64,000 bases of DNA from Escherichia coli (GTDB lineage Bacteria; Pseudomonadota; Gammaproteobacteria; Enterobacterales; Enterobacteriaceae). Shown piece after piece: positions 61,101 through 64,000 of the stretch (position 1 is its first letter; each line of letters begins with the position of its first letter). The stretch lies in the NCBI RefSeq assembly GCF_003334405.1, contig NZ_QOWM01000002.1; one strand, 5' to 3'. Made by a program: the position numbers.

Positions 61101-64000
61101 CAGAAATATCCGCTATCTTTATTGACAAATCATGTGTTAGATATTTTCCTCCAAGAGATTCTTGTTCAATATAATTTAAACCAGACCCCATTGTGATTTT
61201 AACTGGATTAACGGATTTCTCTTCATTTTTCTTATTTTTGTTCTCCTGATCAGGAACTAATGGTTGCAGTGGTAGGCTATTATTAATATTTCGTGGCTTC
61301 ATTTTACATTTCTCTCATTTGATTAGAGCAAAATCCGAATTCGCAGCTTCTGATAATGTCAAATATCACCTTATGGAGACGTTACGTAGAATGACTATAT
61401 TTGTTATCGGCACATTAGGGGTATTAATTTTAGTATTGATGGAAGGTGATTATTGAACAGTAACATCGAGTCACGGTAAAAATGTGAGGTATACAATGGA
61501 CATTGAATTTTCGCAGATTCATGAAATGGTCTATATGCATGATATTGTAAATTCGGACTCGAAAAAGAAACCAAGGATTCCGTTAAAAAAATTCCTTAAT
61601 GCTGAGAATGTTCTCACGCAAACAACATCATGGACATTAAATTCAAGATATGTGAATGTTAATTCTGTCAATAAAGTCAACGTAAAGAGTAAAGTTAAAA
61701 ACAGTTATATCTCACGATCTGTCAATGATGAGTTTAGTTTAACAGATGATGAAATCAATTCTTTTAAAGAAACGTTAGTCCTTTCCTCTATTGATTCACT
61801 GAGTAAACTGGTTCTTAATAATCCTCTTTCTGTATTGTTTACATCGACTGTACGAAGGAATAATAATCGAGCTAAGATGAATGTCGAGTTCGACTCATGG
61901 ATTTGCACCAGATGTTGTTGATACATGATATTTTACATTGCAAGGAGATGTCTAAAATGAAAGATGTTGATCAAATCTTTGATGCTTTAGACTGCCATAT
62001 ACTGCGAGAATATTTAATTTTATTGTTTTATGATTAACGAGGTTCCATCTTTTTGTTATCTATTTTAGTTTACCTTGCACAATGCATTATTGCTCTGTTA
62101 CCAATGCTCAAAATAAAAGCATGCTTACCTTGCTTTAGTATATTATAGCTTACACTTTTTTCTGGAAAGACATAAAAATCAGGAATAAGTTGTGCAAGTC
62201 TATCATCATCAACTTGATCCATAATCTCAAACTTATTAACTTTCTTTGATGTTAAATGGGCTGTGTCATAGTTTTCAATCCATGTGTATTCAATATTTCG
62301 CCGTATTGATTTACTTTCTCTGTTACCTTGTTGCCAGGTTCCACTCAACGCAACAGTTCCTGTTTTATTTTTTTTGTTATACATAAAGTCGATGGTAAGA
62401 TTTGCTCGTCCCTGGTCATTAAAAATTACCCAATTTGCAGTGCATGTTTCGTTATATATCATTTTTTCTGCAGTGTAAGAATAGACAGTGAAGAGAATAA
62501 ACCCACTGATAAAAACTAAAATAAATAATAAGTTTTTTTATAATCAATCACGATTAACCTCACGGTAAGACAGGGTTAAACAGTTTGCCACTTCATGTTG
62601 GTTATAGTTTTTATTGCATGCCATAACAATCATCCCCGGTGAGGATTTTGCAAGAGGGAAGTATAACCACGGATGTTTTTTACAGTTAATCCCCGAATCC
62701 AGTATCCGTGTTTTATATTTATCGAACTCTTTCAACCCATCAATTGTATCTTCTGTTACATTAAAATGGCAGCCATTAATTTCCGCAACAGTCTTGTAAT
62801 CCTTGAAAAATGGCTTCGGGTGATTATTATTCCATAGCCAATATGCAGAATATGCGCCTATGACAAATGCGCTCAACATAATTAGATGACTTTTTATATG
62901 TTTGAGGATTTTGTTATTGAAATTCTTTGCGCCACCAATGCTCTCTTTGTATCCCGCATTAACTTTTATGGCAGGTGGGGCATTGTGTGTATGTGCGTCT
63001 GTTGACGAGTTTATTACATGATTTTGTATGTTAATGTCATTATGGATCTTGAATCCTCTTCTCGGCACGGTTGCAATTAGCGAGTGGGTAGTATCACCAA
63101 CAGCGCGAAATCCGCGTCTGATAATGGATATGTTCTGATATAACGTGTTAGTAGGCACACGCATACCTTCTTCTTCCCAGACTCTGGTGAAAAAATCTTG
63201 TTGTGCAACCACATCAGGAAAAGCTTCAAGTAGAAGTGATAAACATCGACTGGCTGGCGTTGTCAGAACGACGTTAAGATCGGCGTTATGTACCGATATT
63301 AATTTTCGGTGCTCAGGCCAGAACTCGATATTATCGTTAATAATCCAGTACATACGTCAATAAACACTAAATCAATCGAAATGGAGATCACATAGTTTGC
63401 TAAGTATATTGGTATTTACGGCATAAATATATATTAATTTTATATTTATCATGATGATTGAAATGAGGCTTTAATGTTGCAACGTAAAACTTTACGTAAA
63501 TTAACATGGTTAACATTTATGCCACTATTGTTTGTAAATTCATATTTCGTAATGCTTCTGAATTTTCGTGTGATGGTTTTAAATACTATGGTGTTTACTC
63601 TTGAGGGGACGGCCTATTTATAAAATACGGACATTTCAATAAATGCCCGTATAAACAGAGTATGATTCTGGCTGGTCGTTGAGTATCAATGTTGGACCGA
63701 ATGTGAACGAATAAATAATTCGTTTATTTTACCACCCATTCTCTTTTCGATTCGTTGCTTGTACGCGTAGATGCTACGGATATCCATATCCAGAACTTCA
63801 GCAATCTGATATGGATTATAACCAGAAACCATATACCCCATTATGGTGAATTCCATCTGAGTTAATGTGTTACCTCTGGTAAATGATAAATAACGACCAA
63901 TAAATAGTTGTCTGATCTTTTCATTGGCAACATCAAGACCATCATCATTATATATGACAGCAGATATTGCTGAGTTGTGTTTTCGCCAGTAATTAGCTAA

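What the first reader, a model, noticed from the sequence alone, without database searches (positions are those of the whole stretch)
62070..63353. yqeI-yqeJ resembles a ToxR/ToxS-type pair, and yqeJ lacks a canonical start for its hydrophobic N-terminus
yqeI encodes a membrane-anchored winged-helix regulator and yqeJ follows immediately. In frame upstream of the yqeJ ATG (62462) is an open hydrophobic stretch (LLFILVFISGFILFTVYSYTAEK) bounded by TAA and containing no ATG, GTG or TTG, next to an A7 homopolymer (62533-62539). The membrane anchor may depend on a non-canonical start or on homopolymer slippage.
Basis: seen in the sequence. Interest (0 to 1): 0.4.

Follow-up and report, generated by a model that had tools for sequence, protein, structure and literature searches.

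The report
One-base deletion orphans YqeJ's anchor
In this E. coli strain the run of eight A's near the start of yqeJ has lost one A, which cuts the gene's normal GTG start off from its membrane anchor; the yqeI-yqeJ pair is an already published ToxR/ToxS-like sensor cassette, so this is an ordinary frameshift allele and not a new way of starting a protein.

The parts
62544..63353 (-). yqeI: ToxR-like transmembrane transcription regulator, 269 aa, intact in the window
   Evidence: ORF listed. Pfam Trans_reg_C at residues 28-102, E 4e-9. Best PDB sequence hits are ToxR, E 1.6e-7. Hydrophobic segment around residues 156-175, preceded by a K-rich stretch. Over window 62000-63400, which contains yqeI, the K-12-like record shows only the one-base length difference that one search places in the A-tract; the pairwise SNP counts cover a wider 3.5-kb stretch.
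62558..62561 (-). GAGG Shine-Dalgarno serving the ancestral yqeJ start
   Evidence: Strongest anti-SD pairing in 62440-62600, -6.4 kcal/mol. GAGG or GGAG is conserved at the same column in E. albertii, E. sp. E4742 and a marmotae-like contig.
62549..62551 (-). Ancestral GTG start codon of yqeJ, out of frame in the window. It overlaps the yqeI stop (GTGATTGA).
   Evidence: This is the annotated start of the 160-aa YqeJ in A8 genomes. ATG or GTG occupies the same alignment column in three other Escherichia lineages. In the window it opens only VIDYKKTYYLF*.
62516..62551 (-). Eleven-codon dead-end ORF that the GTG start now opens (VIDYKKTYYLF, then TAG at 62518-62516)
   Evidence: Translations.
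62545..62547 (-). Alternative TTG start. It is in frame with yqeJ only for A9 or A6 tracts and out of frame in the window.
   Evidence: O157:H7 (A9) is annotated from this TTG as a 159-aa protein beginning MIIKKNLLF. In the window it opens a 31-aa ORF, 62452..62547.
62533..62539 (-). A7 homopolymer: a -1 allele of the A8 tract that encodes Lys-Lys-Asn (AAA AAA AAC), codons 5-7 of YqeJ
   Evidence: Alignments. Exact-match counts: A8 2,452; A9 297 (O157 background) plus 3; A7 84; A6 2.
62463..62537 (-). Orphaned coding segment for the remainder of the N-terminal tail and the membrane helix (KNLLFILVFISGFILFTVYSYTAEK), with no canonical start in frame
   Evidence: Conserved at protein level in orthologues. 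Three of four substitutions in strain 142 are synonymous in this frame. The model shows a helix over residues 2-30.
62520..62522 (-). ATT that NCBI's PGAP uses as the yqeJ start in A7 genomes (150-aa WP_028986041.1)
   Evidence: No Shine-Dalgarno lies upstream. AUU initiates at about 0.1-3% of AUG (10.1101/063800).
62070..62462 (-). ORF for the periplasmic lipocalin-like barrel domain of YqeJ (130 aa from the internal Met31), lacking the anchor
   Evidence: Met31 is not conserved in other species, which have I or F. The model has eight strands over residues 35-159, pLDDT 94.3. Best structural matches are VtrC and ToxS. Cys37 and Cys158 are invariant or nearly invariant across 67 homologues.
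62368..62375 (-). Second in-frame A8 tract in yqeJ (codons 59-62), intact in the window; used here as a control tract
   Evidence: The -1 allele is exact in 34 genomes and the +1 allele in 66.

Best explanation
The window carries a -1 frameshift allele of yqeJ. In the ancestral and majority state the gene starts at a GTG that overlaps the yqeI stop codon (GTGATTGA), 6 nt downstream of a GAGG Shine-Dalgarno. It then reads MIDYKKN, a membrane helix, and an eight-stranded lipocalin-like periplasmic barrel that partners the periplasmic domain of the ToxR-like regulator YqeI. Lys-Lys-Asn is encoded as AAA AAA AAC, which forms an A8 run. In this strain one A has been lost, most likely by replication slippage. 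Ribosomes starting at the GTG now terminate after 11 codons. The TTG four bases downstream, which rescues the A9 allele of O157:H7, is also out of frame. The anchor-plus-barrel ORF is left with no canonical start. The expected result is that membrane-anchored periplasmic YqeJ is absent or reduced to trace amounts. Any 130-aa product from the internal ATG would stay in the cytoplasm and could not meet YqeI's periplasmic domain. By analogy with ToxS, TcpH and VtrC, YqeI would then be left without its co-sensor. What is shown: the tract alleles, the start codons, the conservation and the fold. What is inferred: loss of the protein and its effect on YqeI.
For: (1) K-12-like, P13-6 and NCTC9038 loci have A8 and an annotated 483-nt yqeJ that overlaps yqeI by 8 nt. 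The window, L73, LR-64-2, HS and one assembly each of DH1 and W have A7.
(2) Exact-match counts among about 3,630 complete genomes with the locus: A8 2,452; A9 297 (O157:H7 background) plus 3; A7 84; A6 2.
(3) The start column, the Shine-Dalgarno, Lys-Lys and the helix are conserved in E. albertii, E. sp. E4742 and a marmotae-like contig, all with in-frame A6 or A7 runs. The window's Met at 62462 is not conserved.
(4) The only strong anti-SD site lies upstream of the GTG. There is none near the ATT or the ATG.
(5) The 130-aa product has no hydrophobic segment.
(6) A7 sits on several haplotypes whose nearest neighbours are A8. DH1 ME8569 equals K-12 apart from the indel. Four HS assemblies span 4091 nt (the A7 length; A7 read directly in NC_009800 and in two others by exact k-mer), while the closest non-HS strains span 4092.
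(7) The control A8 tract in the same gene carries frameshifts in 34 + 66 genomes, so such indels are ordinary here.
(8) The surrounding ETT2 island in near-identical strains already carries five frameshifted genes, one gene with an internal stop and one truncated gene. The literature describes widespread mutational attrition of ETT2 (PMC3977695).
(9) Over 64 kb the window has only two indels against two close relatives, so there is no sign of systematic homopolymer miscalling.
Against: No expression data are available, so loss of the protein is inferred. RefSeq does not flag A7 alleles as pseudogenes and annotates a 150-aa ATT-start protein instead. Low-level restoration by RNA polymerase or tRNA-Lys slippage on A7 cannot be excluded. 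Some public A7 calls are probably assembly errors or stock variants: W NC_017635.1 against NC_017664.1 and all W derivatives, and ACN002, which carries -1 at both tracts. I cannot inspect reads for the window's own strain. Outside O157, A7 (84) greatly outnumbers the presumably tolerated A9 (3), which a purely neutral picture does not predict, although the counts are of genomes and not of events (note 4).
Confidence: 0.8

Rival explanations
1. The A7 in the window is a sequencing or assembly miscall of a true A8, and the strain has a normal yqeJ.
For: Homopolymer calls at this site disagree between assemblies of the same strain: W NC_017635.1 has A7, while NC_017664.1, LY180 and KO11FL span one base more (the A8 length), and DH1 ME8569 has A7 against other K-12 records. 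ACN002 shows -1 at both A8 tracts of the gene. The window's only other indel in 64 kb is also a missing T in a short run 1 kb away.
Against: Only two indels in 64 kb against two relatives argues against an error-prone assembly. The A7 allele is certainly real elsewhere: four HS assemblies agree on the 4091-nt span (A7 read directly in one, exact k-mer in two others), and sets of related isolates share it.
Confidence: 0.12
2. Full-length anchored YqeJ is still made from the A7 allele at a physiologically useful level. The route would be insertion of one A by RNA polymerase slippage, or a -1 slip of tRNA-Lys on AAA AAA A after initiation at the GTG.
For: A +1 A in the mRNA, or a -1 P-site slip on the second AAA, would recreate exactly MIDYKKNLLF (sequence). 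Slippage-restored 'pseudo-pseudogenes' are documented (PMC1088944), as is C. rodentium tssM1 at about 20-25% on an A11 run (PMC4256274). A7 alleles persist in some clades.
Against: Selection against slippage-prone runs becomes evident at about 9 nt in many genomes (PMC1088944), and this run is 7. No downstream structure is present (z +0.39). The Shine-Dalgarno-like GAGG is 18 nt upstream of the run, outside the 10-14 nt spacing I recall as stimulatory for -1 shifts (own knowledge). The frameshifted arrangement is neither conserved nor ancestral.
Confidence: 0.08
3. Translation starts at the in-frame ATT (62522-62520), as PGAP annotates, giving a 150-aa protein with a shortened anchor.
For: RefSeq annotation WP_028986041.1 in A7 genomes. 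The ATT lies 2 nt upstream of the TAG that ends the 11-codon GTG ORF, so termination-reinitiation is geometrically possible (sequence).
Against: There is no Shine-Dalgarno. AUU initiates at about 0.1-3% of AUG even behind an engineered RBS, and only infC and pcnB are confirmed AUU starts in E. coli (10.1101/063800). The product would lack the conserved Lys-Lys tail and three helix residues. The annotation is a homology-driven extension and not evidence of use.
Confidence: 0.04
4. The tract is a phase-variable (contingency) switch. A8 (GTG) and A9 (TTG) are ON states and A7 is OFF, which would let lineages turn the YqeI co-sensor on and off.
For: Start codons exist in two of the three frames immediately upstream of the tract. 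Tract length varies from A6 to A9 among strains and recurs on different haplotypes. Assemblies of the same strain disagree.
Against: A control A8 tract in the middle of the same gene varies just as much. The run is short for a mismatch-repair-proficient species (own knowledge). The TTG is simply part of yqeI's GAT-TGA end and is absent from other species. A9 is essentially one clone, O157:H7. Other species have in-frame A6 or A7 without the dual-start arrangement.
Confidence: 0.05

Closest known systems
Vibrio ToxR/ToxS (PDB 8alo, 8u2f)
   Different: YqeJ has no detectable sequence similarity to the ToxS family: no Pfam-A hit, with precomputed PF27292 YqeJ_C instead, and 10-14% identity in the structural alignments. 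Ligand and regulon are unknown. In the window the partner's anchor is disconnected by a frameshift.
Vibrio parahaemolyticus VtrA/VtrC bile-salt receptor controlling T3SS2 (PDB 5kev/5kew)
   Different: Sequence identity is 6-8%. YqeJ has a conserved Cys37-Cys158 pair, probably the strand-linking disulfide that Kinch et al. describe for the YqeJ/FidL subgroup. Bile binding by YqeJ has not been shown.
MarT/FidL (Salmonella SPI-3) and GrvA/FidL (EHEC)
   Same: These are the closest sequence relatives according to Kinch et al.: the FidL and YqeJ clusters overlap, and YqeI/YqeJ are called orthologues of MarT/FidL (PMC9214523). Pseudogenisation of such cassettes is also reported there for MarT/MisL in S. 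Typhimurium.
   Different: I did not test FidL directly here. The genomic contexts differ.
Homopolymer frameshift decay of the ETT2 island
   Same: ETT2 is known for widespread mutational attrition (Ren et al. 2004, cited in PMC3977695). Near-identical strains carry frameshifted YscQ, EscU, OrgA, lytic transglycosylase and ygeF-like genes. NCTC9038 has a T8 to T7 frameshift in prgH/eprH.
   Different: Here the lesion hits a regulator's partner at codon 7, so it looks like a missing start codon and not an obvious truncation. Automated annotation hides it behind an ATT start.
Slippage-rescued genes: Shigella mxiE, C. rodentium tssM1 (A11), 'pseudo-pseudogenes' of Baranov et al. 2005
   Same: An A or T run at the junction of two frames, where adding one base to the mRNA would restore the product (PMC1088944, PMC4256274).
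   Different: Those runs are 9-11 nt and the out-of-frame arrangement is conserved. Here the run is 7 nt and the out-of-frame arrangement is a minority derived allele.

Membership tests
Co-component transmembrane transcription regulator cassette (ToxR/ToxS, VtrA/VtrC, PsaE/PsaF type) | Regulator with an N-terminal OmpR/PhoB-type winged helix-turn-helix | tested here: met
   Pfam Trans_reg_C at residues 28-102, E 4e-9. ToxR chains are the best PDB sequence hits, E 1.6e-7.
Co-component transmembrane transcription regulator cassette (ToxR/ToxS, VtrA/VtrC, PsaE/PsaF type) | Regulator has a single membrane helix followed by a C-terminal periplasmic domain | tested here: met
   One hydrophobic segment at about residues 156-175, preceded by a K-rich stretch, then about 95 residues with four Cys. 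Kinch et al. model residues 186-269 as a VtrA-like periplasmic domain. Topology itself was not tested.
Co-component transmembrane transcription regulator cassette (ToxR/ToxS, VtrA/VtrC, PsaE/PsaF type) | Partner gene immediately downstream, same strand, typically overlapping | tested here: met
   8-nt overlap in A8 E. coli and E. albertii, 14 nt in E. sp. E4742 and the marmotae-like contig, 4 nt in O157:H7.
Co-component transmembrane transcription regulator cassette (ToxR/ToxS, VtrA/VtrC, PsaE/PsaF type) | Partner has a short cytoplasmic tail, one membrane helix and a periplasmic lipocalin-like barrel | tested here: met
Co-component transmembrane transcription regulator cassette (ToxR/ToxS, VtrA/VtrC, PsaE/PsaF type) | The window's own allele encodes that complete partner from a usable start codon | tested here: not met
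   With A7 the GTG and TTG are out of frame. No ATG, GTG or TTG is in frame with the anchor.
Co-component transmembrane transcription regulator cassette (ToxR/ToxS, VtrA/VtrC, PsaE/PsaF type) | Periplasmic domains of the two proteins form a complex, and the partner stabilises or activates the regulator | not testable with these tools
   Kinch et al. report that the YqeI and YqeJ periplasmic domains form dimeric complexes when co-expressed (PMC9214523). Functional dependence has not been shown.
ToxS sequence family (Pfam ToxS) | Significant match to the ToxS profile | tested here: not met
   The Pfam-A scan of the 160-aa YqeJ gave no hit with E <= 0.001. The precomputed family is PF27292 YqeJ_C. 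The resemblance to ToxS is at fold level only.
Programmed frameshift or programmed transcriptional slippage gene | The out-of-frame arrangement is conserved among homologues | tested here: not met
   The in-frame A8 is the majority (2,452 against 84), and orthologues in three other lineages are in frame.
Programmed frameshift or programmed transcriptional slippage gene | Slippery run of about 9 or more, or a heptamer with stimulators (downstream structure or a correctly spaced upstream SD) | tested here: not met
   The run is 7 nt. The downstream 90 nt folds no better than shuffles (z +0.39). GAGG lies 18 nt upstream of the run.
Phase-variable contingency locus (homopolymer slipped-strand mispairing) | Tract length varies among and within strains more than comparable tracts do | tested here: inconclusive
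   Tract length varies from A6 to A9 among strains, and assemblies of W and DH1 disagree. However, a control A8 tract in the same gene varies as much (34 + 66 genomes), and assembly error cannot be separated from real switching.

The most novel reading that the evidence does not exclude
The GTG/TTG pair in two frames just upstream of the A-run could make the tract a three-state element: A8 gives the GTG form, A9 gives the TTG form, and A7 is off or slippage-dependent. E. coli lineages, or cells within a population, could then tune or silence the periplasmic co-sensor of the ETT2 regulator YqeI. A7 strains would retain a trickle of full-length YqeJ through polymerase or ribosome slippage.
Probability: 0.06. 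Interest if true: 0.5.

Novelty: already known. Interest (0 to 1): 0.17.

Why it matters
The practical value is mostly in annotation and strain choice. YqeI/YqeJ is cited as a virulence-linked co-component sensor in APEC and EHEC work. About 2% of complete E. coli genomes, including the widely used commensal HS, carry an allele in which the partner's anchor is cut off from its start. Another roughly 3% carry frameshifts at a second A8 tract in the same gene. RefSeq masks the first lesion by calling an ATT start, so comparative or functional studies could treat these strains as yqeJ-positive by mistake. The case also shows that a 'missing start codon' next to a homopolymer should first be checked against other strains before a recoding mechanism is proposed.

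Tried and rejected
(1) Programmed frameshift or slippage. Rejected as a designed mechanism: the in-frame state is ancestral and the majority, the run is only 7 nt, and there is no downstream structure.

(2) ATT start, as annotated by PGAP. Considered unlikely: there is no Shine-Dalgarno, AUU is a poor initiator, and the product would lose the conserved Lys-Lys.

(3) ATG 62462 as the true start. Rejected: Met31 is not conserved, the conserved helix lies upstream, and there is no Shine-Dalgarno.

(4) YqeI-YqeJ fusion by readthrough. With A7 the two ORFs share a frame, but a fusion would need suppression of both TGA and TAA, which are one codon apart. Rejected.

(5) Window-wide assembly error. 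Not supported: only two indels in 64 kb against two relatives. A local miscall cannot be excluded.

(6) Family searches on YqeJ. NCBIfam and the local Pfam-A gave nothing. The fold search was needed.

(7) Baranov et al. Figure 5, an E. coli A-run 'pseudo-pseudogene'. I could not establish which gene it shows from the held text.

(8) I did not classify the roughly 800 genomes whose k-mers carry SNPs. In the spread samples most have the A8 span.

(9) The genome contigs, metagenome and viral scans were not used, because protein look-ups supplied the orthologous loci.

Full report
**Observation.** On the minus strand, yqeI occupies 63353..62544 (269 aa, TGA stop at 62546-62544). The longest canonical yqeJ ORF starts at ATG 62462 and ends at 62070, giving 130 aa. 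In the yqeJ frame the upstream sequence reads TGA-TTA-TAA-KNLLFILVFISGFILFTVYSYTAEK-M. The 25 codons after the TAA contain no ATG, GTG or TTG. The A-run is A7 at 62533-62539. The hydrophobic stretch scores 2.26 on a 19-residue Kyte-Doolittle window, and the 130-aa product has nothing above 0.52.

Two start codons lie immediately upstream of the run in the other two frames: GTG at 62551-62549 and TTG at 62547-62545. Both are embedded in the yqeI end...CGTGATTGA. In a K-12-like genome the run is A8. There the GTG opens a 483-nt yqeJ that overlaps yqeI by 8 nt and encodes MIDYKKNLLFILVFISGFILFTVYSYTAEKM..., 160 aa. In O157:H7 the run is A9. There the TTG opens a 480-nt gene encoding MIIKKNLLF..., 159 aa, with a 4-nt overlap. 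This agrees with the 480 bp listed for ECs3705 (PMC3977695). With A7, both starts are out of frame. The GTG gives VIDYKKTYYLF followed by a stop, and the TTG gives a 31-aa peptide.

**Which state is ancestral.** Full-length 160-aa homologues from Escherichia sp. E4742 (70% identity), a marmotae-like contig (66%) and E. albertii (56%) conserve Lys-Lys and the helix (K5, K6, S16, G17, F18, I19). The E. coli Met31, which is the window's ATG, is Ile or Phe in those species. At the DNA level, all of them place an ATG or GTG in the same alignment column as the E. coli GTG, 6 nt after GAGG or GGAG, followed by AAA AAA in frame. E. coli's A8 is simply Lys-Lys-Asn written as AAA AAA AAC. A thermodynamic scan finds the only strong anti-SD site of the region at 62561-62558. 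There is none before the ATT or the ATG. The window therefore carries a one-base deletion of the ancestral tract.

**Population survey.** The locus is present in about 3,630 of 5,426 complete E. coli genomes. Exact 90-93-mers give the following counts: A8 2,452; A9 in the O157:H7 background 297; A9 in the common background 3; A7 84; A6 2. The remaining genomes have SNPs within the k-mer, and in the spread samples they mostly show the A8 span. A7 occurs on several haplotypes:
- DH1 ME8569 differs from K-12 only by the indel.
- The window is closer to the A8 strains P13-6 and NCTC9038 (1 SNP) than to other A7 carriers.
- W and HS sit 8-16 SNPs away from the other haplotypes.

Four HS assemblies all span 4091 nt, the A7 length, while the nearest non-HS haplotypes span 4092; A7 was read directly in NC_009800 and two other HS records match the A7 k-mer exactly. 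The allele is therefore real. Only one of two W assemblies, and none of the W derivatives, shows the A7 length. ACN002 shows -1 at both A8 tracts. Some public A7 calls are therefore probably errors or stock variants.

**Control tract.** yqeJ contains a second in-frame A8 at 62368-62375 (codons 59-62), where any indel is inactivating. Its -1 allele is exact in 34 genomes and its +1 allele in 66. Frameshifts at the first tract are thus no more frequent than ordinary homopolymer indels in the same gene. This argues against a special regulatory status.

**Reliability of the window.** Against P13-6 and NCTC9038, the whole 64-kb window shows 10 shared SNPs and only two indels: the A-tract and a T5 to T4 change at 63563-63566. 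Nothing suggests systematic homopolymer miscalling. A local error cannot be excluded without reads.

**Mechanism in this strain.** The steps shown are that the canonical start is disconnected from the anchor and that the remaining ATG product lacks any membrane segment. The steps inferred are that anchored periplasmic YqeJ is absent or reduced to traces, and that YqeI lacks its co-sensor. The second inference rests on analogy with ToxS, TcpH and VtrC, whose partners protect or activate the regulator (summarised in PMC10269533). The lesion fits the mutational decay of the ETT2 island. Near-identical strains carry frameshifted YscQ, EscU, OrgA, lytic transglycosylase and ygeF-like genes and an internal stop in the LuxR-type regulator. 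ETT2 attrition is well known.

**Rivals.**
- Slippage rescue is chemically possible, since one extra A in the mRNA or a -1 slip of tRNA-Lys would recreate MIDYKKN. However, the run is shorter than the roughly 9 nt at which slippage becomes evident (PMC1088944). Documented cases use 9-11 nt (PMC4256274). No stimulatory structure follows the run.
- The ATT start that PGAP assigns to A7 genomes (WP_028986041.1) has no Shine-Dalgarno. AUU initiates at about 0.1-3% of AUG (10.1101/063800).
- A phase-variation reading is weakened by the control tract, by the clonality of A9, and by the absence of the dual-start arrangement in other species.

**Unexplained.** Outside O157, the presumably inactivating A7 (84 genomes) far outnumbers the presumably tolerated A9 (3). 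At the control tract, +1 (66) exceeds -1 (34). The counts are of genomes and not of events, and they include clonal sets and probable errors, so this may mean nothing (note 4).

**Verdict.** The ToxR/ToxS-type interpretation is correct but already published. The 'missing start' is an ordinary one-base homopolymer deletion of a canonical GTG-started gene, and not a non-canonical initiation or recoding device. Interest is low.

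Noticed in passing
window 62545-62551 (compare L003:1267-1270): Two start codons in two different frames (GTG and TTG, within GTGATTGA at the yqeI stop) lie just upstream of the A-run. Both A8 (160 aa, MIDYKKN) and A9 (159 aa, MIIKKN, O157:H7) therefore give an anchored protein, and only tract lengths in the A7 frame class are fatal. The TTG is absent from E. albertii, E. sp. E4742 and the marmotae-like contig.
   Followed up: yes
window 62520-62522; RefSeq WP_028986041.1 in L002, L007-L010: In A7 genomes PGAP does not flag yqeJ as frameshifted. It annotates a 150-aa 'protein YqeJ' from an ATT codon with no Shine-Dalgarno, which hides the lesion.
   Followed up: yes
window 62368-62375: A second in-frame A8 tract in yqeJ (Asn-Lys-Lys-Asn) is intact here. 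Among complete E. coli genomes it carries -1 in 34 and +1 in 66, so about 3% of genomes have a mid-gene frameshift in yqeJ.
   Followed up: partly
window 63563-63566 (yqeI-yqeH intergenic region): The window has T4 where all eight other loci compared have T5. This is the only other indel in 64 kb against two close relatives. It lies about 210 nt upstream of the yqeI start, so it could touch the yqeI promoter or leader.
   Followed up: no
window 62533-62539 versus 62368-62375: The indel spectrum is asymmetric. The first tract has -1 in 84 genomes but sporadic +1 in only 3, while the second tract has +1 in 66 and -1 in 34. This is unexplained and may reflect clonal sampling or assembly errors.
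   Followed up: partly
L009 (E. coli W NC_017635.1) versus NC_017664.1, LY180, KO11FL; L008 (DH1 ME8569) versus other K-12 records: Assemblies of the same laboratory strain disagree at this tract by one base in span (A7 confirmed in L008 and L009; the A8 state of the other W records inferred from a 4092- versus 4091-nt span), with otherwise identical 4-kb flanks. The cause is either homopolymer miscalls in older assemblies or real stock-to-stock variation.
   Followed up: partly
window about 47800-61300 (ETT2 island); L005, L006 annotation: In near-identical strains the ETT2 type III secretion island carries frameshifted YscQ-, EscU-, OrgA-, lytic-transglycosylase- and ygeF-like genes and an internal stop in the LuxR-type regulator. 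NCTC9038 also has T7 instead of T8 in prgH/eprH at window 53231, where the window has the intact T8.
   Followed up: partly
L004:849-1271 (strain 142); hits H5 and H240: Other independent lesions exist at this cassette: a premature stop that truncates YqeJ to 140 aa in strain 142, and IS1 insertions splitting yqeI in at least two genomes.
   Followed up: no
window 61957-62037 (+): An 81-nt ORF (MKDVDQIFDALDCHILREYLILLFYD) between yqeK and the 3' end of yqeJ is annotated in RefSeq as a hypothetical protein (WP_000655820.1), convergent with yqeJ.
   Followed up: no
window about 8700-9800 (+): prfB, with its well-known programmed +1 frameshift, lies in the window according to the annotation of the collinear relatives (L015:9366-10464). 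It is a genuine recoding site and a useful contrast with the yqeJ tract.
   Followed up: no
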